From Minisyncoccota bacterium (GTDB taxonomy: Bacteria > Patescibacteriota > Minisyncoccia > Phycocordibacterales > CAIZLB01): a DNA stretch of 64,000 nucleotides. This document shows positions 4,804 through 60,043 of the stretch, piece after piece. A program made the position numbers and the translations under genes. The stretch lies in NCBI GenBank assembly GCA_021734945.1, contig JAIPIA010000001.1:308415-372414 (forward strand). Reading direction: 5' to 3'. Below the pieces are notes generated by a model. That model had not been told where the DNA came from. It saw only the letters and a program-made list of their open reading frames with translations, and searched no databases. The stretch's first letter is position 1, and each line of letters starts with the position of its first letter.

Positions 4804-4904
4804 TGGTTGCGGAGATGGGATTTGAACCCATATCTTTTCCTTTCGAAAAGCTCTAAATAAAAGCTCTTTGAAAGAGAAAGGTGCTACCATTACACCACTC
4901 CGCA
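4804..4904 (-). tRNA. Atypical 101-nt tRNA-like gene (canonical acceptor, D and T arms, encoded CCA; best register gives anticodon UUC with ~31 nt where the variable arm belongs)
   Basis: Acceptor TGCGGAG/CTCCGCA, T-arm ATGGG-TTCAAAT-CCCAT, D-arm GTGT..GCAC. The anticodon arm TTTCT-CTTTCAA-AGAGC closes with only about 4 pairs. There is an internal 9-nt direct duplication AGAGCTTTT. Confidence 0.45.
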
Positions 4905-10115: not shown

Positions 10116-10202
10116 TGGTGCGCAGGGAAGGATTTGAACCTTCGAAGCCCATTGGGCGACAGATTTACAGTCTGTTGCGATTGACCACTCCGCCACCTGC
10201 GC
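10116..10202 (-). tRNA. tRNA-Tyr (GTA) with long variable arm, CCA encoded
   Basis: Anticodon arm CAGA-CTGTAAA-TCTG, T-arm GAAGG-TTCAAAT-CCTTC, acceptor GCGCAGG. Confidence 0.8.
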
Positions 10203-10268
10203 ATGAGTGCCATAGTAGCATTTTATTTGAGTGGTTTCAACCCTAAACTTTTATATACATGTACCAAG

Positions 10269-10340
10269 TATCCTTTGTATATCCCTTATGTATCCCTTAT
10301 GTATCCGTTGTGTATCCTTTAGATACTTGATACATGTAGA
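10269..10340. repeat. Five tandem 11-bp units (TATCCNTTNTG; TATCC at 10269/10280/10291/10302/10313) ending in GATACTTGATACATGTA
   Basis: Exact 11-bp phasing read from the sequence. The same terminal 18-mer recurs at 24045-24062. Confidence 0.7.
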
Positions 10341-10384
10341 CCATTATTTCATGAGAGTCACTCACAAAAACTACTACAATATGC

Positions 10385-16943: not shown

Positions 16944-17043
16944 AAAAGACCCCCTTCGGGGCCTTTTTGCGCATTATTTTAATGAATTTGACTGTTATTT
17001 CTTTGCTGGTTTAGCTTTCTTGGCAACCTTAGCTTTCTTTACC
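16944..17043. repeat. Ghost copy of the rpmF 3' end plus terminator (direct repeat of 17907-17984)
   Basis: A 47-bp identical core, ATTTCTTTGCTGGTTTAGCTTTCTTGGCAACCTTAGCTTTCTTTAC, plus a shared hairpin AAGACCCCTTCGGGGCCTTTT. Confidence 0.7.
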
Positions 17044-17140
17044 TTTTATAGTTTCCACCTTTAAATACATAATCAGCATAAATATTTTAATACAGGTAGC
17101 AATCTTAAGCCCCTGGCAGTATTGCGTCTGCTACCAAATA

Positions 17141-17803
17141 ATGGTAAAAATCTCCTGGAACCCAAACAAAAAGCTTAGTATGACACACGCATCAAACACG
17201 GTACTTAATCCCAAAGAGAATGTTGATGCTGTTGAAGCATTGACGCAGCGGTTTATTGATGGCGATGTAGAAGCCTTTACTGAACTGTATCAAAAAGTTA
17301 GGGGTATCCTGATTTCACATATCAGGCAGATCTTTCGCGGAGCATATGAAGAAGACATCTTTTCTGAAGCAATGGATGCTGCATGGAGGAAAAGACATAC
17401 CTACAATCAGAGAAAAGGCAAACTAGTTTTTTGGCTGACATCAATTGCCAGAAAAAAAGCCATCGATTTCCTGCGAAGGGTCGACGCGAGAGAAAGAATG
17501 TTAGACAGGTACAAAACAGCGTTAAGTTCAGATCCATCAAACAGGATCCATCACGAGGATACTGGAATTCGTCACCTCTTCCAAGAGGAGGAAGGGCAAA
17601 GAATCTTGGAAATCATGAAGAGACACCTTACTGAGGTCCAGGTCCAGGTGATGACTCTTCATTGGATTGCAAGAAAGTCGCAGAGGACAATCTCGGACGA
17701 ACAGAATATTCCACTCGGAACGGTGAAAGATCGCCTAAAATCAGGACTTGGTAATCTGATTCGACACGTCCAAAGGGAACCCTTCTACAAAGACCGCAGC
17801 TGA
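17141..17803 (+). CDS. ECF-type RNA polymerase sigma factor (sigma-70 regions 2 and 4)
   Basis: Region 2 (FTELYQK..DIFSEAMDAAWRKRHTY..FWLTSIARKKAIDFLRR) and region 4 HTH (LTEVQVQVMTLHWIARKSQRTISDEQNIPLGTVKDRLKSG). The true start may be downstream (MTHAS at ~17180). Confidence 0.7.
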   Translation: MVKISWNPNKKLSMTHASNTVLNPKENVDAVEALTQRFIDGDVEAFTELYQKVRGILISHIRQIFRGAYEEDIFSEAMDAAWRKRHTYNQRKGKLVFWLTSIARKKAIDFLRRVDARERMLDRYKTALSSDPSNRIHHEDTGIRHLFQEEEGQRILEIMKRHLTEVQVQVMTLHWIARKSQRTISDEQNIPLGTVKDRLKSGLGNLIRHVQREPFYKDRS

Positions 17804-17937
17804 AGCCATAAGGCAGAGGAAAACCTCTTGCCGGCTCACAGCAGGCGGTTTTTCTTTTGTCTAATTTTATACAAAAATCAAAGGCTATAAACATATGCAA
17901 GTAATGAAAAAGACCCCTTTCGGGGCCTTTTAATTGA

Positions 17938-18198
17938 CTATTTCTTTGCTGGTTTAGCTTTCTTGGCAACCTTAGCTTTCTTTACTTTAGCTTTTGGTTC
18001 CTTCTTAGCAGTTTTGGGTAGTTTCTCTTTTTTAGCAAGAGCGTTCTTACCTTTGTAGAGTCCACATGCAGAACATGCAATGTGCTTTAGTTTAGGCTGT
18101 CCGCAGTTTACGCAAAGAATGAAACCAACACCCTTAAGAGCGTGGTGGCTTCGTCGGTTTCGAGTGTGACCTCGAGTATGTCGCATGTGATTTACCAT
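17938..18198 (-). CDS. rpmF: 50S ribosomal protein L32 with a Lys/Ala-rich C-terminal tail
   Basis: HTRGHTRNRRSHHALK ... C.NCG.PKL.H..C.ACG; C-terminal tail AKKEKLPKTAKKEPKAKVKKAKVAKKAKPAKK. Confidence 0.8.
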   Translation of the reverse strand: MVNHMRHTRGHTRNRRSHHALKGVGFILCVNCGQPKLKHIACSACGLYKGKNALAKKEKLPKTAKKEPKAKVKKAKVAKKAKPAKK

Positions 18199-23651: not shown

Positions 23652-23894
23652 TTAATCGAGAATATCTTCAAGCGGCATTGCTTTAAATTTGTATTTATTA
23701 ATGTCTTTTCTAGACCGGCTAATCACTTCTTCAAGATAAGGGTTCATATCGTCGTCAGCCGTGAACTTCACCTCACGTGTCCGTATGAGCTGCCTTAGAA
23801 AAGCATTGATAACACCACTCAATGTTAATCCCATATTATCTATAATCATCTGAGCTTCCCTTTTGACTCTTGCGTCAGCCTTAATGTGAATCAT
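23652..23894 (-). CDS. RelB/DinJ-family antitoxin-like ribbon-helix-helix protein (orphan; no toxin gene adjacent)
   Basis: MIHIKADARVKREAQMIIDNMGLTLSGVINAFLRQLIRTREVKF matches the DinJ pattern. The longest ORF reaches 23918. Confidence 0.55.
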   Translation of the reverse strand: MIHIKADARVKREAQMIIDNMGLTLSGVINAFLRQLIRTREVKFTADDDMNPYLEEVISRSRKDINKYKFKAMPLEDILD

Positions 23895-23992
23895 TGTTGT
23901 CTTTATAGTTGGTCTCATATTTAATATTTAGTCTTGAAGTTAGTTTTAAATTTGATTAAATATGTTTTTAAATATCTTTTGCATATATCAAA

Positions 23993-24120
23993 TATCCAAC
24001 GTGTATCCCTTTTATACTGTTTATGTATCCATAGTGTATCTATTGGATACTTGATACATATACATCAATACTCATTACCTTGATACACATAACTTGATAC
24101 ACACAACTTGATACACCCGC
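23993..24120. repeat. Second TGTATCC repeat array: 11-bp-phased units at 23993/24004/24026/24037, the 18-mer GGATACTTGATACATATA, then three tandem AACTTGATACAC units
   Basis: Read directly. It shares the terminal 18-mer with array 10269-10340 and is flanked by AT-rich DNA (23920-23990 and 24120-24300). Confidence 0.7.
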
Positions 24121-24299: not shown

Positions 24300-26138
24300 A
24301 TGAAAAAAGAAACAGACGCGTCTAACGACGCCGTGCACGCTTCAAATAGCGCACAATCAATAGAACATATCAGACACTCGCTAGCTCATCTTCTTGCAAC
24401 CGCAACGGTGAGTTTATATCCTGATACGCTTCTTACGATTGGACCAGCTGTTGAAAACGGTTTCTACTATGACATGGACTTTACTGCCCCACTCAAGGAT
24501 GCAGACCTTCCAGTTATCGAACAGAAAATGCGAGATATTCTCAAAGATTGGACTATTTCAAGTAAAAAAGGCGTAGCACCTGATGCTTGTCATTTCTTAC
24601 ACAAAGAGGTTTCAGTAGACGAAGCACGAGCTTTGTTTGCAAACAACCCATACAAACTTGAACTTATCGAGGAAATTAATGCTAAAGGTGAAAAGATAAC
24701 ACTCTATACAGTAGGTTCTGGAACAGAGTATGAGTTCACAGATCTTTGCCGTGGTGGACATGCTGATGATATGAGTACAATTGATCAAAATTCATTTGCA
24801 CTCACTCGTCTTGCAGGTGCTTATTGGCGAGGTGACGAAAAAAACAAAATGCTCACACGAGTATATGGACTTGCTTTCCAGACTAAAGATGAACTCAAAG
24901 CGTATCAAACGCTCATGGAAGAAGCACGAAAGCGTGATCACCGAATTCTTGGAGAAAAACTCAATCTATTTTGCTTTGATGAATCAATAGGTAAAGGACT
25001 TCCATTATGGCTACCTAAAGGAAATATTGTCAAGGAACAACTAGAAGAATGGGCAAAAGATACTGAAAAGAAATGGGGCTACCAGAGAGTTACAACTCCT
25101 ATTATTACAAAGGAAAACTTATTCTATACATCTGGGCACTTACCTCTTTATAAAGAAAGTATGTATGCTCCTATTCAGATAGAGGATGAGAATTACTACA
25201 TTAAGCCGATGAACTGTCCGTTCCATCACAAGATTTTCTCCGCAAGAATGCGAAGTTACAAAGAGCTTCCTCTCCGTGTTGCTGAATACGGTTGGTGTCA
25301 TAGATATGAAGATTCAGGTAGTCTTTTTGGACTTATGCGAGTGCGAGGAATGCAAATGAACGATGCACATATATATGTTCAGAAAGAAAAGGCTGTTGAA
25401 GAATTTGTTCAAGTCATCAAACTTCATGAGTATTATTATAAAACTCTTGGTATCAAAAACTATGAAATGGAACTCGCTCTCCGCGACCCAAGCAAGATGG
25501 ATAAGTATCATGGAAACGAGGAAGACTGGAAAGACGCTGAACGAATGACAATAGAAGCTATGGAGCAATCCGGGGTGCCTTACAAAGTAGTCCAAGAAGG
25601 AGCTGCTTTTTATGGACCAAAAATGGATTTCCAGATTTTCTCTTCAATAGGACGAGCATTTACAGCATCTACAAACCAACTTGACCTCTACATGGGTAAA
25701 GCATTCGAACTTGAATATGTAGATAATGATGGTGTAAAAAAGACTCCAGCAGTTATTCACAGAGCCCCTCTTGGTACACACGAGCGATTCATTGGTTTTC
25801 TTATTGAGCACTTTGGTGGAGCTTTCCCAGTATGGCTCTCACCTGTTCAGGTAAAGATTGTACCTATCGGCGAACGTCAAATGGAATATGCAACAATTCT
25901 AAACCAAACTCTCCTCGATGCAGACATTCGTGTGGAACTCGATTCATCAAATGATGGATTAGGTAAAAAAATCAGAAGTGCAAAACAGGAAATGATTCCT
26001 TACGTTCTAGTTATTGGAGATAAAGAAATTGAAACAAACACAGTTACTGTTGAAAGCCGAACTGGAAATGAAGGTGCTGTAACTATTGAAGATTTCATAG
26101 GGCGAATTACGTCTGAAATAAAAAACCGAAGTTTGTAA
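24300..26138 (+). CDS. thrS: Threonyl-tRNA synthetase
   Basis: Class II core with HRILGEKLNLF, the zinc-site motif CPFHH and a C-terminal anticodon-binding domain; 612 aa. Confidence 0.85.
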   Translation: MKKETDASNDAVHASNSAQSIEHIRHSLAHLLATATVSLYPDTLLTIGPAVENGFYYDMDFTAPLKDADLPVIEQKMRDILKDWTISSKKGVAPDACHFLHKEVSVDEARALFANNPYKLELIEEINAKGEKITLYTVGSGTEYEFTDLCRGGHADDMSTIDQNSFALTRLAGAYWRGDEKNKMLTRVYGLAFQTKDELKAYQTLMEEARKRDHRILGEKLNLFCFDESIGKGLPLWLPKGNIVKEQLEEWAKDTEKKWGYQRVTTPIITKENLFYTSGHLPLYKESMYAPIQIEDENYYIKPMNCPFHHKIFSARMRSYKELPLRVAEYGWCHRYEDSGSLFGLMRVRGMQMNDAHIYVQKEKAVEEFVQVIKLHEYYYKTLGIKNYEMELALRDPSKMDKYHGNEEDWKDAERMTIEAMEQSGVPYKVVQEGAAFYGPKMDFQIFSSIGRAFTASTNQLDLYMGKAFELEYVDNDGVKKTPAVIHRAPLGTHERFIGFLIEHFGGAFPVWLSPVQVKIVPIGERQMEYATILNQTLLDADIRVELDSSNDGLGKKIRSAKQEMIPYVLVIGDKEIETNTVTVESRTGNEGAVTIEDFIGRITSEIKNRSL

Positions 26139-30927: not shown

Positions 30928-30970
30928 GAAAACCACATGTATGGATGTAATCCCGGATACATGTGGTTTT
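30928..30970. repeat. Conserved hairpin element, copy 1 (stem CCACATGTAT/ATACATGTGG, loop GGATGTAATCCCGG)
   Basis: Related copies at 42244-42270 and 50548-50586 share the 22-mer TGTATCC(G/A)GGATT(A/G)CATCCAT. Confidence 0.6.
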
Positions 30971-30992
30971 CTGCTTTCGAGCGTTTTTATTT

Positions 30993-31277
30993 CTACTGAC
31001 CAAATATCTGCGTAACGCCAGTATCAGATGGAGATACACCAATAGTGTTCATGATGAGGTTCATTATTCCGAATACTGAGATCATAATGAACATACCAAA
31101 AATTCCGTACATTATGTGCTTACTACCTGTAGCACGCCCATCTTCACTATCAGAATCTTTTATATACATAAAAACGCCATACAAAAAAACCAGTACCGCA
31201 ACAGCAAAGAGCAACATTATTATCGGGTTAATGATAACTTGGTTAATTTTGTGAATAAATGCGAGTGCTGGCTTCAT
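30993..31277 (-). CDS. Small two-TM membrane protein, paralogue 1 of a six-gene tandem family (VirB2/TrbC pilin-like)
   Basis: Shared architecture: TM helix, a charged G/D/E..AR loop, then a second TM helix; some members also have an N-terminal signal peptide. Confidence 0.4.
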   Translation of the reverse strand: MKPALAFIHKINQVIINPIIMLLFAVAVLVFLYGVFMYIKDSDSEDGRATGSKHIMYGIFGMFIMISVFGIMNLIMNTIGVSPSDTGVTQIFGQ

Positions 31278-31303
31278 GTGTTGAATTTATATGTATCGTG
31301 AAC

Positions 31304-31678
31304 CTATCTCTGCTGGAAGTACCCAGCTGCGTTTGGAAGCTGAGGAGCTGCAGGAGCTGTGTTGTCCAAGTTCACACTTCTAACCAAAATATTTACCAAT
31401 CCCCATACAGATACCATTACGAAGAGTGCAACAACACCCCAAATAATATATCCCTGTGCTTCTTTTCGAGCTTCACCATCACCACCAGCAATAACAAATT
31501 TGAAAATACCCCAAAGGAAGATCAATACTGTAAGAGCAATGATGAATGGGATAAGTCTGTTGATGAGGTCGTTTGCCTGAGCCAAAAGTCCGAGTAAACC
31601 TCCAATAGTCTGTGCTCCAGCAATAGCAGGAGTTATGAGTACCAAAAGTGCAGAAAGTTTTAGAAATGTCTTTTTCAT
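31304..31678 (-). CDS. Paralogue 2: signal peptide plus two TM helices with conserved C-terminal block WGVVALFVMVSVWGLVNIL
   Basis: Near-identical nucleotide stretch CCAATCCCCATACAGATACCATTACGAAGAG shared with paralogues 3 and 4. Confidence 0.5.
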   Translation of the reverse strand: MKKTFLKLSALLVLITPAIAGAQTIGGLLGLLAQANDLINRLIPFIIALTVLIFLWGIFKFVIAGGDGEARKEAQGYIIWGVVALFVMVSVWGLVNILVRSVNLDNTAPAAPQLPNAAGYFQQR

Positions 31679-31783
31679 CTTTTAATAACGAATTATAATT
31701 TTATTAAGAGACTTCTTTTTAAAAAGTCGTACTCTAATTATACTTTGTTTTAGCGTTTGAAGATAGCAGGCTGTGGATTGCTT

Positions 31784-32074
31784 CTATCGAACTGGTATCA
31801 ATTGTTCAAGATTTTGAGGAGTTGAGTTGTTCAAATGTAACGATGTTACCAAAATATTTACTAATCCCCATACTGAGACCATTACGAAGAGTGCAACGAT
31901 ACCCCATGTAATATACCCTCGAGCCTCCTCTCTTGCTGCACCATCTGAGCTTGTAACCATTCTAAAAATTCCCCAAATGAACACGAGAACTGTCATAGCA
32001 ATGATAAGAGGCATCACCACGTTTATAAGTTCTTTTATCATCTGTATTATTGCGAATATTCCTGTAGCTCCCAT
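31784..32074 (-). CDS. Paralogue 3 (WGIVALFVMVSVWGLVNIL)
   Basis: Same motif and nucleotide-level conservation as paralogue 2. Confidence 0.5.
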   Translation of the reverse strand: MGATGIFAIIQMIKELINVVMPLIIAMTVLVFIWGIFRMVTSSDGAAREEARGYITWGIVALFVMVSVWGLVNILVTSLHLNNSTPQNLEQLIPVR

Positions 32075-32092
32075 ATATTTATATTATTTAAA

Positions 32093-32449
32093 TTATCTTA
32101 ATTGCGGAATAACTAAGCCTCCTCCGAAAAAAGTGGATGTAAGTATACTTACCAATCCCCATACAGATACCATTACGAAGAGAGAGACGACACCGTACGT
32201 AATAACACCAATCGCCTCTTTTCGGGCATCTTCACTATTACTTCGTACAAGCTGAAAAATTCCCCAGATAAAATAAAGCAGGGTAAGGCCGACGATGAGA
32301 GGTACAAGGGTTTTAATCATACCTATAAATAGTCCCACCAATGAACCAAAGTCATACGCTACCTGACCATAAGCCTGCGTCTGCAAGGGAAAAGTAATAA
32401 GAAGCAGAGCCGCTGCGCTTATAATTTTTTTAGATGATGAAAATTTCAT
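32093..32449 (-). CDS. Paralogue 4 (signal peptide; YGVVSLFVMVSVWGLVSIL)
   Basis: Same family. Confidence 0.5.
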   Translation of the reverse strand: MKFSSSKKIISAAALLLITFPLQTQAYGQVAYDFGSLVGLFIGMIKTLVPLIVGLTLLYFIWGIFQLVRSNSEDARKEAIGVITYGVVSLFVMVSVWGLVSILTSTFFGGGLVIPQLR

Positions 32450-32469
32450 ATGTGTATTTATGTTTTCTA

Positions 32470-32811
32470 TTATATACCTAATTCGTTAACTGTTGCTTGT
32501 ATTGCCGTTGCAATAACTCGAGCTCCCAATACAATAGCTCCTCCAACAATAGTCCATGTCAACGTCTGGTGAGCTGAACTAATCTGCTTTTCGTCCCCTC
32601 TTGCAGTAACATATTTGAAACCAGCAAGAATAAGGAAAAATACAACAACAATAGCACCTAGCAAAATAACAACATCAAGTACTTGAAGCAGGAAGCCATC
32701 TAACGTGCTTGCCTGAATAGGGTTAGTGAAATACTGCTGAGCACTAAGTAAGGTTGGAAGGAGCGTAAAACCAGATGCTAGAAACGTAGTAGTAATTTTT
32801 TTAATATTCAT
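32470..32811 (-). CDS. Paralogue 5 (signal peptide, two TM helices, ARGDEKQ loop)
   Basis: Same architecture. The start is set at MNIKKITTTF; the longest ORF would overlap paralogue 6. Confidence 0.4.
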   Translation of the reverse strand: MNIKKITTTFLASGFTLLPTLLSAQQYFTNPIQASTLDGFLLQVLDVVILLGAIVVVFFLILAGFKYVTARGDEKQISSAHQTLTWTIVGGAIVLGARVIATAIQATVNELGI

Positions 32812-32876
32812 AGCTGTAATTATATAATAGATTTTAATCTTCACAAACTTTTCACTAGTAGCCAAAAGATGAATTC

Positions 32877-33308
32877 CTAGCGCAGCAGACTGTATGCATT
32901 GTCTACTCCCAAAAACTTCAACATGGTTGCCACGAGCAACCAAGCTGCCATAGTGAAAAATATACCTTTTATCACATTACCAAAGATGCCGTTTGCAGTT
33001 TTACGTGCCCCAGTATCATCTCCAGACGTCATATAGAGATACCCTGCATATACCATTGAAACAACAGCCGCCATTGCAGCAAGGTAAATAGCATTTTGGA
33101 GGATATTTTGACCCATTTTCATCAACTGTGGCCATCCACATGCTACTGTCACTTGACCATTAGCACCTTGTACAGGCTTTCCATAACATTCATCTGGGAC
33201 AAACGATACCAACCCAGCAGCGTCAACTACAACCGGTGAAATAAAAGCACTTAATACTGTAAGTATTGTAAAGACTTGCAGTATGAGTAATTTAATTGTT
33301 TTTTTCAT
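32877..33308 (-). CDS. Paralogue 6 (signal peptide, Cys-containing ectodomain, two TM helices, SGDDTGARK loop)
   Basis: Same architecture. Confidence 0.4.
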   Translation of the reverse strand: MKKTIKLLILQVFTILTVLSAFISPVVVDAAGLVSFVPDECYGKPVQGANGQVTVACGWPQLMKMGQNILQNAIYLAAMAAVVSMVYAGYLYMTSGDDTGARKTANGIFGNVIKGIFFTMAAWLLVATMLKFLGVDNAYSLLR

Positions 33309-42243: not shown

Positions 42244-42316
42244 CCCTGTATCCGGGATTACATCCATGCGATTTCGCGAAATCGTGCCGCGCCACCGTCC
42301 TTACGGCGCGGCCTTT
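42244..42316 (+). terminator. Hairpin-family copy 2 (TGTATCCGGGATTACATCCATGCG) plus rho-independent terminator GCCGCGCCACCGTCCTTACGGCGCGGC + T-run after rpsA
   Basis: Read directly. Confidence 0.6.
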
Positions 42317-42513
42317 TTTGTTTTTAATTTGCTCGCTCCTTAATGTTAGAGACATTTATCTGACTGTTTTTAAGGGTTAATTATGAAGAAAATAAATGCC
42401 AAAATAGCCTTAAATATAGGCGTTTTGGTGGTATAGCTTGACATACCTAGGTATAGTGGTAAAATTGTATTCGTAGAGTTCTTTATAGAGTAGTGACGGG
42501 ATTAGTAAGACTT

Positions 42514-42570
42514 GTTGAAGTGAACACAAAGTGGTTCATATTATATGGACCTTTCTGTGTTCACTTCAAC
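42514..42570. promoter_or_regulatory. Perfect 15-bp inverted repeat GTTGAAGTGAACACA-N27-TGTGTTCACTTCAAC
   Basis: Read directly. It lies upstream of the small GC-rich ORFs. Confidence 0.5.
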
Positions 42571-42635
42571 TCGTCTGACGAGTGTGTAAGTGGCGAAACA
42601 ACAACGCAACTAACAACATACAGAGGATAATCACC

Positions 42636-50524: not shown

Positions 50525-50547
50525 AAATTCACTCAAAACAAACAAAA

Positions 50548-50586
50548 CACCTTGTATCCAGGATTGCATCCATACAGGGTGTTTTG
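50548..50586 (+). terminator. Hairpin-family copy 3 (CACCTTGTAT-CCAGGATTGCATCC-ATACAGGGTG + T-run) after ftsZ; second terminator at 50623-50655
   Basis: Read directly. Confidence 0.6.
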
Positions 50587-50698
50587 TTTTTCTTTGTTCA
50601 CTAAAAAATAAAAAACTCAGCCCCGACGCGTTCAACGCATCGGGGCTGTTTTATTGTTGAAGATTCTGTTTGAAGATATCACCTTACTTGTTGGTCGA

Positions 50699-59616: not shown

Positions 59617-59641
59617 TTCGGCCTCCGAGAAAACCCCGTTA
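59617..59641. terminator. Bidirectional terminator AAAACCCCGTTAAGGGGTTTTTG
   Basis: Read directly. Confidence 0.6.
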
Positions 59642-60043
59642 AGGGGTTTTTGATTTTAAAAATAATTTTATAATTGAAGAATTTATTCTAGAAAAATCTT
59701 CATTATTTAAAGTACAAATTTTTCTCAATAATCTGAGTGAGCTTACACACTTAATTTGAGTAAGTGACACCCAAGCAACAGTTGGATTTTCAATTCTAGT
59801 GTAATGAGGACTATTTGTTTTATCTTTAGTGGTGAGCGGTAATACCCAAAGCATTAAACCATTAAACTTGTTGAGAATTAAAACAGGTCTTTCAAACTTA
59901 CTGTTCTTTCCATTCGATTCAACACCAATATTGGTACCTATTGAACACCACCAAATTTCTCTCTCAGAAAAATAGAAGTCTTGGAGGATTTTCTTATCTA
60001 TCTTCTGCTTCTCTAAATTCCACAGATCAAAATCTTTCTCCAT
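59639..60043 (-). CDS. PemK/MazF-family toxin-like protein (solo; no antitoxin ORF upstream)
   Basis: ERPVLILNKFNGLMLWVLPLTTKDKT block resembles the MazF core. Confidence 0.45.
   Translation of the reverse strand: MEKDFDLWNLEKQKIDKKILQDFYFSEREIWWCSIGTNIGVESNGKNSKFERPVLILNKFNGLMLWVLPLTTKDKTNSPHYTRIENPTVAWVSLTQIKCVSSLRLLRKICTLNNEDFSRINSSIIKLFLKSKTP

What the first reader, a model, noticed from the sequence alone, without database searches (positions are those of the whole stretch)
10269..10340. Array A: five tandem 11-bp TATCCNTTNTG units at helical-turn spacing, ending in GATACTTGATACATGTA
TATCC recurs at 10269, 10280, 10291, 10302 and 10313, an exact 11-bp period. An inverted copy (GGATAC-like) and the 18-mer (A/G)GATACTTGATACAT(G/A)TA follow. 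The same 18-mer terminates a second, more complex array at 23993-24120. Phasing at one helical turn is typical of iterons or multimeric regulator operators. This array sits between tRNA-Tyr and the 3' end of clpB, with no adjacent regulator gene.
Basis: seen in the sequence. Interest (0 to 1): 0.6.

Follow-up and report, generated by a model that had tools for sequence, protein, structure and literature searches.

The report
Binding-site array for an orphan antitoxin
The 11-base repeats are real and form the amplified middle of a short palindromic DNA element found twice in this Patescibacteria window; they are most likely landing pads for a small ribbon-helix-helix repressor left over from a toxin-antitoxin pair, which is a lineage-specific variant of a known kind of operator and not a replication origin.

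Summary
TATCC recurs at 10269, 10280, 10291, 10302 and 10313. No simulated sequence gave more than 3 phased copies.

It also missed that 10258-10346 aligns without gaps, at 75% identity, to 23982-24070.

Both arrays are expanded copies of a ~42-bp element found in a few related Paceibacteria MAGs: TGTATCAAGTATC-TAAAG-GATACACNTTG-GATACTTGATACA. That is two 13-nt arms plus one 11-bp unit. The window copies carry four such units.

One copy sits upstream of a RelB/DinJ-type ribbon-helix-helix (RHH) gene, between thrS and dnaE, in every lineage examined that has this gene type. More distant relatives keep the YafQ toxin or a longer RHH. In those, the same position holds a plain 30-bp palindrome overlapping the promoter, as in a classical antitoxin operator. 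Half-site changes (GATAC to GGTAC) track a change in a DNA-facing beta-strand residue (M/L to K/R).

Best reading (about 0.5): multi-dimer operator arrays for the orphan antitoxin. Array A is a lineage-specific second site just upstream of the tRNA-Tyr/rpmG promoter.

Main rival: an RHH-independent hairpin repeat. An origin, iterons and att sites are not supported.

The parts
10322..10338 (-). Array A, distal arm. Read on the minus strand it is TACATGTATCAAGTATC, holding two half-sites 7 bp apart (TGTATC, AGTATC).
   Evidence: It pairs with 10256-10272 at 16 of 17 positions; the mismatch is G:T.
10317..10321 (-). Array A, 5-nt spacer TAAAG. It is identical to the spacer of the 42-bp elements in MAGs JAGOSK01 and JAUPUG01.
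10273..10316 (-). Array A, four internal 11-bp units: GATACACAACG, GATACATAAGG, GATACATAAGG, GATATACAAAG.
10256..10272 (-). Array A, proximal arm GATACTTGGTACATGTA, holding two half-sites 7 bp apart. It ends 15 bp upstream of the -35 of the tRNA-Tyr promoter.
10212..10240 (-). Candidate sigma-70 promoter of tRNA-Tyr/rpmG: TTGAAA, 17-nt spacer, (TG)TACTAT, ending 9 nt before the mature tRNA 5' end. The core is conserved in relatives that lack the array.
   Evidence: Conservation.
10116..10202 (-). tRNA-Tyr(GTA), followed by rpmG (L33, 9865-10020). This is the unit downstream of array A.
23984..24058 (-). Array B core. It has the same 75-bp architecture as array A: arm TGTATCAAGTATC, spacer CAATA, units GATACACTATG / GATACATAAAC / AGTATAAAAGG / GATACACGTTG, arm GATATTTGATATA.
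   Evidence: (D2). The orthologous copy is in L002.
24059..24118 (-). Array B extension. It consists of about four further tandem copies, one of them degenerate, of the 14-nt arm (GTGTATCAAGTTRT), period 14.
   Evidence: Only partly conserved in L002.
23652..23918 (-). Orphan RelB/DinJ-type ribbon-helix-helix gene (88 aa). Its start codon lies 65 bp from the proximal arm of array B. There is no toxin gene: 25 bp separate its stop from the dnaE stop.
   Evidence: Pfam PF04221, 31.1 bits against a cut-off of 22.4. Aligns over its full length to E. coli DinJ 4q2u/4ml0, E about 0.05. Relative L010 keeps a YafQ toxin.

Best explanation
Arrays A and B are two expanded copies of a palindromic operator-type element. 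The likely binding protein is the orphan RelB/DinJ-family ribbon-helix-helix (RHH) protein encoded at 23652-23918.

Inferred mechanism: one RHH dimer inserts its beta-ribbon into the major groove at each GATAC-type half-site. The two inverted 13-17-nt arms, each with two half-sites 7 bp apart, are the ancestral antitoxin operator and act as nucleation sites. [quoted passage not shown] This builds a protein-coated stretch of about 75 bp (A, and the core of B) or about 135 bp (B with its arm repeats).

At B this stretch lies just upstream of the RHH gene's own start, giving autoregulation. At A it ends 15 bp upstream of the -35 of the tRNA-Tyr/rpmG promoter and 46 bp downstream of the clpB stop. 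There it would modulate that promoter, block read-through from clpB, or both.

The units arose by slipped-strand duplication between the GATAC repeats.

Shown here: the architecture, the homology of A and B, the element family, its constant association with the RHH gene, and its descent from (or shared specificity with) a promoter-overlapping toxin-antitoxin operator.

Inferred: binding, stoichiometry, and the sign and target of regulation.
For: 1. Element family. The same arms, spacer and unit occur as a 42-bp element in two other MAGs. In the Paceibacterota MAG JAGOSK01 the copies are L014, L066 and two in L079. In MAG JAUPUG01 they are L110 and L006. A covariance model built from 8 copies finds only A and B in the window (E 3e-4 and 8e-4; next hit E 3).

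2. Constant association with the RHH gene. A copy lies upstream of the RHH gene, between thrS and dnaE, in every lineage examined that has the 80-96-aa RHH type: the window, L002, L006, L134, L135 and L144.

3. Link to a classical operator. In relatives with the 100-aa RHH type (L010 with a YafQ toxin, L136, L138), the same position holds a 30-32-bp palindrome, ATACATCYRAAGTATA|TACYTTRGATGTAT. It lies between TTGACA and an overlapping TATACT -10. The covariance model hits exactly these palindromes (22-28 bits).

4. Co-variation. Beta-strand residue 9 alternates with the invariant core residues I10 and I12, so it should face the DNA. It is M or L where the inner half-site is GATAC (window, L002, L006, L134), and K or R where it is GGTAC (L135, L144). 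Residue 11 is H in this clade and N in the plain-palindrome clade, which has TATAC/GATGT half-sites.

5. Family precedent. E. coli RelB dimers recognise four hexads [A/T]TGT[A/C]A on one DNA face (PMC2812701), and the outer half-site here is (A/G)TGTAT. ParD2 dimers fill consecutive major grooves on one face (PMC10776004). Omega and ParG coat arrays of 4-12 boxes in mixed orientation, one dimer per box (PMC9499535, PMC3130281). DinJ and MqsA also regulate genes at other loci.

6. The RHH protein is one of only three recognisable DNA-binding gene products in 64 kb, with a sigma-70 family gene (17141-17803) and an ORF6N-domain gene (948-1475), and the only one next to either array.
Against: - No binding data exist, and the promoter of the RHH gene in the window was not found by the consensus scan.
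- Several dispersed copies are not in promoter positions. L014 and L110 lie between convergent genes, and L066 lies after a terminator.
- Within one genome (JAGOSK01), copy L079 1917-1970 has a compensated C<->G swap in both arms (GATAG/CTATC). This fits selection for pairing, or template-switch homogenisation of the arms, better than read-out by a single protein.
- L142 has a perfect 20-bp-arm copy after rpmG but no RHH gene beside dnaE. The rest of that genome was not seen.
- The residue/half-site co-variation may rest on only one or two evolutionary events.
- Array A is absent from the closest relatives by ClpB identity (93-94%), so it is not needed for the tRNA-Tyr promoter.
- The mix of 7-bp and 11-bp spacings is unusual for a single cooperative RHH lattice.
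Confidence: 0.5

Rival explanations
1. The element is an RHH-independent, hairpin-forming repeat of the REP, MITE or cassette-boundary kind. It would be a short palindrome with a conserved loop that is copied to new intergenic sites as single-stranded or cruciform DNA. The copy at the RHH gene would then be related only by descent, and the 11-bp units would be slippage products with no function.
For: - The arms stay complementary over 13-20 bp, with compensatory double changes at 7 or more positions across 11 copies and one within a genome.
- The loop is conserved as G-K-R-Y-A-Y-A-C across lineages.
- Copies lie in intergenic DNA just after gene ends or terminators.
- Two copies bracket a 194-aa ORF in L079.
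- L014 and L066 are 41/42 identical while their flanks are unrelated.
- A and B correspond unit by unit, so an already expanded array was copied to a second locus.
- A copy persists in L142, where no RHH gene is seen beside dnaE.
Against: - No transposase, RAYT or integrase gene lies in the window or the loci.
- No target-site duplication could be recognised.
- Copy number is low, 2 in 64 kb.
- In A and B the arms are 49 nt apart, which disfavours cruciform or hairpin extrusion, yet they remain intact.
- This reading does not explain the residue/half-site co-variation or the operator-like position in the plain-palindrome relatives.
- Quasipalindrome template switching can perfect the arms without any selection (general knowledge, not tested here).
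Confidence: 0.25
2. The element acts as an RNA hairpin, transcribed on the strand that reads TGTATCAAGTATC...GATACTTGATACA. It would sit in the 3' UTR of the upstream gene (clpB for array A) or the 5' UTR of the RHH mRNA, and act in mRNA stability, processing or protein binding.
For: - Arm mismatches are mostly G:U-compatible on that strand: 8-9 wobble pairs against 3 A:C.
- Array B folds better on that strand, -24.4 against -16.6 kcal/mol.
- The five non-RHH copies whose orientation can be read (A, L014, L066, L079a, L110) run in the same direction as the gene or terminator upstream of them.
- The consensus fold has 7 covarying pairs.
Against: - Three copies lie after a T-run or terminator, so they are probably not transcribed from upstream.
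- The RHH-linked copies face a divergent thrS, and the better promoter candidates lie downstream of them.
- No Rfam family matches.
- No U-run follows the hairpin, so it is not an intrinsic terminator.
- An 11-bp phased expansion of the loop has no obvious meaning for an RNA.
- The wobble bias could simply reflect a C-to-T mutational bias, and the copies are not independent.
Confidence: 0.08
3. The arrays serve replication or segregation: iterons or DnaA-box clusters of an origin, or an RHH-type centromere like parC, parH or the omega heptads.
For: - Direct repeats phased at about one helical turn are typical of iterons and of RHH centromeres (PMC3130281, PMC9499535).
- Coding strand and AT skew change sign near 19.6 kb, between the two arrays.
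Against: - The window has no dnaA, rep, parA or parM gene.
- DnaA boxes are not enriched (26 against 18.7 +/- 4.3), and none lies at the arrays.
- The strand switch falls where RNase HII and dnaE overlap, with no intergenic DNA.
- Array A is missing from relatives with 93-94% ClpB identity.
- There is no similarity to any plasmid or phage record.
Confidence: 0.05
4. The two arrays are attL and attR of an integrated element inserted next to tRNA-Tyr, with arm-type recombinase or Xis sites.
For: There are two direct copies 13,724 bp apart, and one is next to a tRNA gene.
Against: - The interval holds core genes in conserved synteny: clpB, a class-V aminotransferase (Aminotran_5) gene, rpmF, rnhB and dnaE.
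- There is no integrase.
- The array is at the 5' side of the tRNA gene, not the 3' side.
- The same gene order exists in relatives without array A.
Confidence: 0.01

Closest known systems
relO operator of E. coli relBE (RelB RHH antitoxin)
   Same: - The same Pfam family of repressor (PF04221).
- An inverted-repeat operator made of four short half-sites with a TGT(A/C) core; the outer half-site here is (A/G)TGTAT.
- Dimers bound on one DNA face (PMC2812701).
   Different: - No toxin co-repressor gene here.
- The palindrome is split by 16-49 bp holding one to four extra 11-bp units, whereas relO tolerates no spacing between its half-sites.
- Further copies lie outside the repressor's own promoter.
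DinJ-YafQ module, and DinJ/MqsA as regulators of other loci
   Same: - The best solved-structure match is DinJ.
- Relative L010 has a YafQ toxin right after the RHH gene.
- DinJ is reported to repress cspE through a palindrome elsewhere, and MqsA regulates several other genes (PMC4996492, PMC4803016).
   Different: - The sequence similarity to DinJ is weak (E 0.05).
- The toxin is lost here.
- The second site (array A) is a full multi-unit array rather than a single palindrome, and its target is unproven.
Omega (ParB-pSM19035) heptad arrays, and ParG OF/parH tetramer-box arrays
   Same: An RHH dimer per short box, with 4-12 contiguous boxes in mixed direct and inverted orientation upstream of promoters (PMC9499535, PMC3130281). 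The arms here are two heptads: GATACTT GATACAT.
   Different: Those arrays double as plasmid centromeres with a ParA partner, and no such gene is present here. The spacing here mixes 7, 11 and 14 bp. There is no sequence similarity.
ParR/parC of plasmid R1
   Same: A tandem ~one-turn repeat array next to a promoter, bound by an RHH protein. That R1 parC has two sets of five 11-bp repeats is my recollection and was not checked in a paper here.
   Different: No ParM gene. The repeat sequence is unrelated. The setting is chromosomal. The repeats are enclosed by inverted arms.
V. cholerae ParD2 three-site GGTA operator
   Same: RHH antitoxin dimers occupy consecutive major grooves on one face, and the antitoxin self-oligomerises (PMC10776004). 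The GGTA(C) core occurs in the L135/L144 variants and in the outer half-sites of array A.
   Different: A different antitoxin family (ParD). It has three sites only and is regulated by the toxin ratio.
REP / MITE-type palindromic repeats
   Same: Short intergenic palindromes, often just after genes, with arms kept complementary.
   Different: Low copy number, no cognate transposase, no target duplication, and a constant link to one regulator gene.

Membership tests
RelB/DinJ-type antitoxin operator | The adjacent gene encodes an RHH protein of the RelB/DinJ family. | tested here: met
   Met for array B: Pfam PF04221, 31.1 bits against a cut-off of 22.4, and a full-length DinJ alignment. Array A has no adjacent regulator gene.
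RelB/DinJ-type antitoxin operator | Inverted-repeat half-sites in the regulator's own promoter region, conserved with the gene. | tested here: met
   The element lies upstream of the RHH gene in six lineages. In L010, L136 and L138 the palindrome overlaps the -10 of a TTGACA/TATACT promoter.
RelB/DinJ-type antitoxin operator | The operator overlaps the core promoter in this window. | tested here: inconclusive
   The scan found no consensus promoter between array B and the start codon. A weak TTTAAA-N18-TAAAAC, conserved in L002, starts 10 bp after the arm (my reading).
RelB/DinJ-type antitoxin operator | A cognate toxin gene follows in the same operon. | tested here: not met
   Only 25 bp separate the RHH stop (23652) from the dnaE stop (23626). 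A YafQ toxin is present only in relatives L010-L012.
RelB/DinJ-type antitoxin operator | The protein binds the site. | not testable with these tools
   Indirect evidence only: beta-strand residue 9 (M/L against K/R) tracks GATAC against GGTAC half-sites.
Replication origin / iterons | An initiator gene (dnaA or rep) nearby, with its boxes enriched. | tested here: not met
   No such gene. TTATCCACA with up to 1 mismatch gives 26 hits against 18.7 +/- 4.3 expected, and none lies at the arrays.
Replication origin / iterons | Conserved position in close relatives. | tested here: not met
   Array A is absent in L138 and L142 (ClpB 93-94% identical), although the tRNA-Tyr core promoter is conserved.
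RHH-type partition centromere (parC / parH / omega parS) | An array of short boxes in direct or inverted orientation next to an RHH gene. | tested here: met
   Array B carries up to about 16 half-site-like motifs over about 135 bp, ending 65 bp from the RHH start.
RHH-type partition centromere (parC / parH / omega parS) | A partner ParA or ParM NTPase gene in the locus. | tested here: not met
   None in the window or in the orthologous loci.
REP / MITE-like mobile palindrome | Terminal inverted repeats with a target-site duplication and many dispersed copies. | tested here: inconclusive
   Inverted arms are present. No consistent duplication appears at four compared insertion sites. There are 2 copies in 64 kb, and 4 in 24 kb of JAGOSK01, though that sample was chosen by pattern match.
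REP / MITE-like mobile palindrome | A cognate transposase or RAYT in the genome. | tested here: not met
   None in the window or the fetched loci. Whole genomes were not available.
Intrinsic terminator | A G+C-rich hairpin followed by a U-run. | tested here: not met
   The terminator scan finds nothing at the arrays. The arms are A+T-rich, the loop is 49 nt, and no T-run follows.
Known RNA family (Rfam 15) | A match at the gathering score. | tested here: not met
   Only tRNAs were found in the window and in L014, L066, L079 and L110.

The most novel reading that the evidence does not exclude
After losing its toxin, a DinJ/RelB-type antitoxin in a small clade of Paceibacteria has been domesticated as a genome-wide DNA-binding factor. 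Its operator has been copied to several intergenic sites and amplified by 11-bp and 14-bp slippage into multi-dimer landing pads. One of these sits on the upstream edge of a stable-RNA/ribosomal-protein promoter (tRNA-Tyr/rpmG). In effect this would be a new regulon, or a nucleoid-organising system, built from a toxin-antitoxin operator in an organism with very few regulators.

A variant of this reading is that the element is a new hairpin-type mobile repeat with a conserved loop that can bracket and move single ORFs, as in L079.
Probability: 0.2. Interest if true: 0.6.

Novelty: new variant of a known kind. Interest (0 to 1): 0.4.

Why it matters
Patescibacteria have tiny genomes with very few transcription factors, and almost nothing is known about how they regulate genes. 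If the reading is right, this would be a case where one can follow, step by step across relatives, how a plain toxin-antitoxin operator changed:
- it lost its toxin;
- it was split by an extra half-site;
- it grew by helical-turn duplications;
- it was copied to a second locus, next to a tRNA/ribosomal-protein promoter.

That would give a concrete, testable candidate regulator-site pair in an uncultured lineage. It would also be an example of operator evolution by repeat expansion. It is not an origin of replication, and it does not challenge any established principle.

Tried and rejected
- **attL/attR of an island at tRNA-Tyr.** Rejected: the 13.7-kb interval holds core genes in conserved synteny, with no integrase.
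- **oriC or iterons.** Rejected.
- **Intrinsic terminator of clpB.** Rejected: no U-run, and a 49-nt loop.
- **CsrA-type sponge RNA.** I considered this because the units of array A read A(N)GGAUA on the minus strand. Rejected because GGA is absent from the loops of L134, L135, L144, L142 and the second L079 copy.
- **Integron attC.** Only one GTTRRRY-like box per element, and no intI. Not pursued.
- **OmpR/WalR-type direct repeats** (TGTWAH-N5). Position 5 does not fit, and the inverted arms are not explained. Recalled from memory and not tested.
- **JGI metagenome scan** with TGTATSAARTATCYAMWRGATAYAY. It gave only two chance hits inside coding DNA. The viral contig scan gave none.
- **blastn of both arrays** against plasmids and phages. 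No match.
- **AlphaFold monomer of the RHH protein.** Low confidence (pLDDT 54), as expected for an obligate dimer, so no fold search was run.
- **21-nt repeat at 30941 / 42247 / 50554.** Examined as a possible third site. It is a different hairpin family.

Full report
**Observation**

The sequence shows TATCC at 10269, 10280, 10291, 10302 and 10313, followed by AGATACTTGATACATGTA at 10321-10338. The matching 18-mer GGATACTTGATACATATA lies at 24045-24062. Tandem Repeats Finder reports period 11 x 4.9 copies at 10268-10321, and period 14 x 4.8 copies at 24049-24116.

A run of five identical 5-mers at any fixed period from 7 to 15 occurs only at 10269. In 200 first-order Markov simulations the longest such run was 3. 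GATAC/GTATC is not over-represented in the window as a whole, but it clusters only at these two places.

First, the array is also flanked on its left by TACATGTACCAAGTATC (10256-10272), the inverted copy of the right-hand 17-mer. Second, 10258-10346 and 23982-24070 align in register without gaps at 75% identity (D2).

**Anatomy**

Read on the minus strand, which is the direction of tRNA-Tyr and of the RHH gene, array A has these parts:
- the arm TGTATCAAGTATC;
- the spacer TAAAG;
- four 11-bp units (GATACACAACG, GATACATAAGG, GATACATAAGG, GATATACAAAG);
- the arm GATACTTGGTACA.

The palindrome extends to 17 nt on each side.

Array B has the same 75-bp layout: spacer CAATA, and units GATACACTATG, GATACATAAAC, AGTATAAAAGG and GATACACGTTG. 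It also has about four more tandem copies of the 14-nt arm on its thrS side.

The half-sites therefore run two leftward, then n+2 rightward, with spacings of 7, 11 (repeated n+1 times) and 7 bp. Units 1 and 2 of A and B match at 9 of 11 positions each. This suggests that an already expanded array was copied from one locus to the other.

**Setting**

The window is an ordinary Patescibacteria (Paceibacteria-like) chromosome segment, taken from a 69-kb Logan contig of run SRR12088351.

The 13.7 kb between the arrays holds clpB, a class-V aminotransferase (Aminotran_5) gene, a sigma factor, rpmF, rnhB and dnaE. The arrays are therefore not the ends of an island. The window has no dnaA, rep, par, transposase or integrase gene.

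Array A lies 46 bp after the clpB stop. It ends 15 bp before the -35 of a good tRNA-Tyr/rpmG promoter, TTGAAA-17-TACTAT.

Array B lies between the divergent thrS gene and an 88-aa RelB/DinJ-type ribbon-helix-helix (RHH) gene (Pfam PF04221). The best solved relative of that protein is E. coli DinJ. No toxin gene follows it.

**Relatives of the RHH locus**

The RHH protein has only ten detectable homologues, all in Patescibacteria-type contigs with the order thrS / RHH / dnaE.

Lineages with the 80-96-aa protein each carry a copy of the element upstream of the gene:
- L002 (92-94% identical) has the same four-unit array.
- L006 has the arms plus a single unit.
- L134 has perfect 15-nt arms, with a 2-nt insertion mirrored in both arms.
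- L135 and L144 have arms built on GGTAC instead of GATAC.

Lineages with the 100-aa protein (L010 with a YafQ toxin, L136/L137, L138) instead have a plain 30-32-bp palindrome. It sits between TTGACA and an overlapping TATACT -10, just before a probably leaderless start, as in a textbook antitoxin operator. A covariance model built from eight elements hits these palindromes at exactly that position (22-28 bits). The element's arms are thus homologous to, or share their specificity with, that operator.

**Dispersed copies**

A pattern scan of GTDB genomes gave mostly chance hits. It also recovered true 42-bp copies in MAG JAGOSK01 (L014, L066, L079) and in MAG JAUPUG01 (L110, the same genome as L006).

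The covariance model added two more:
- a second copy in L079, so that the two L079 copies bracket a 194-aa ORF;
- a copy with perfect 20-bp arms 140 nt after rpmG in L142.

In the window the model finds only A and B.

The contexts vary:
- L014 and L110 lie between convergent genes.
- L066 lies after a terminator.
- L079a lies about 25 bp before a start codon.

Array A itself is absent from the two closest relatives by ClpB identity (93-94%; L138, L142), although the tRNA-Tyr core promoter is conserved there. Array A is therefore a recent, lineage-specific acquisition.

**Which molecule reads the element?**

For the RHH protein:
- The element is constantly linked to the RHH gene.
- It descends from, or shares specificity with, a promoter-overlapping operator.
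- The outer half-site (A/G)TGTAT resembles the RelB hexad [A/T]TGT[A/C]A (PMC2812701).
- There is a co-variation. Beta-strand residue 9 alternates with the invariant I10 and I12, so it should face the DNA. It is M or L with GATAC inner half-sites, and K or R with GGTAC. Residue 11 is H here, and N in the plain-palindrome clade, which has different half-sites.

RHH proteins are known to coat arrays of short boxes in mixed orientation, one dimer per box, on one DNA face: ParD2, omega and ParG. Antitoxins such as DinJ and MqsA are reported to regulate other loci. An 11-bp period is what places successive dimers on one face.

Against the RHH protein, or for a structural hairpin repeat:
- The arms remain complementary at nearly every position, with compensatory changes at 7 or more positions.
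- One compensated swap occurs within a single genome (the second L079 copy).
- The loop is conserved (G-K-R-Y-A-Y-A-C).
- Several copies are not at promoters.
- L142 keeps a perfect copy although no RHH gene lies beside its dnaE.

Template-switch correction of quasipalindromes could keep the arms perfect without selection, but that is general knowledge and was not tested here.

An RNA role is hinted at by an excess of G:U-compatible mismatches on one strand (8-9 against 3) and by a weak orientation trend. However, three copies follow terminators, no Rfam family matches, and no U-run follows the hairpin.

**Verdict**

The finding is real and non-random. The most likely reading (about 0.5) is a multi-dimer operator array for the orphan DinJ/RelB-type RHH protein. 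Array B would be its autoregulatory site. Array A would be a second, recently copied site at the upstream edge of the tRNA-Tyr/rpmG promoter and the downstream end of clpB.

The iteron/origin suggestion is not.

The main rival (about 0.25) is a hairpin-type repeat that spreads independently of the RHH protein.

This is a new variant of a known kind: RHH operator arrays and antitoxins with extra targets are both established. What is new is the stepwise expansion and dispersal of a toxin-antitoxin operator in a Patescibacteria lineage.

The decisive tests are a footprint or EMSA with the purified protein, and a whole-genome census of elements against RHH presence and residue 9.

Noticed in passing
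window 30930-30975, 42247-42267, 50540-50590: A second, unrelated repeat, GTATCC(R)GGATT(R)CATCC, occurs three times where none is expected by chance. Two copies form the top of long terminator-like hairpins: one right after ftsZ, the other between convergent genes. The third follows the S1 protein gene. It was not found in any fetched locus (I16, 97-102).
   Followed up: partly
window 24300-26138 (thrS): The threonyl-tRNA synthetase is mosaic relative to its positional orthologues in L002 and L006. Residues 1-220 look about 95% identical, the catalytic core (about 220-520) only about 40%, and the C-terminus about 80% (my estimates from the alignments, 62% overall). This suggests the core was replaced by recombination.
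   Followed up: no
window 16944-17045 and 17908-17988: A ~100-bp direct repeat (96-98% identical) brackets the sigma-70 family gene at 17141-17803. It consists of a hairpin, AAAAGACCCCYTTCGGGGCCTTTT, plus the 3' end of rpmF. In relative L138 a sigma gene of this kind sits elsewhere, after rpmG. The gene therefore seems to have been moved together with a duplicated target.
   Followed up: no
window 4807-4904 (minus strand): Rfam calls a 98-nt tRNA (56.7 bits) that ARAGORN does not report. It may be a tRNA with an insertion or an unusual arm.
   Followed up: no
L079 1917-2620 (MAG JAGOSK01): Two copies of the palindromic element bracket a single 194-aa ORF with no Pfam match, between cysS and dnaB. 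The downstream copy has a compensated C<->G swap in both arms (GATAG/CTATC).
   Followed up: partly
L142 14369-14422; L142 770-1566: This relative (ClpB 94% identical) lacks array A and has no RHH gene beside dnaE; two ORFs with no Pfam match lie there instead. It nevertheless carries an element with perfect 20-bp arms and loop TGTACAC, 140 nt after rpmG.
   Followed up: partly
window 42505-42579: A 37-nt inverted repeat (81% complementary, 1 nt between the arms) lies in the intergenic region downstream of the S1 gene (I2; sequence).
   Followed up: no
window 59639-60043; 31259-32943: A MazF/PemK-type toxin gene, and a cluster of T4SS-pilin/TrbC-like small genes with a 129-nt repeat in three copies (D1, 63). 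The same pilin clusters occur in relatives L140 and L141.
   Followed up: no
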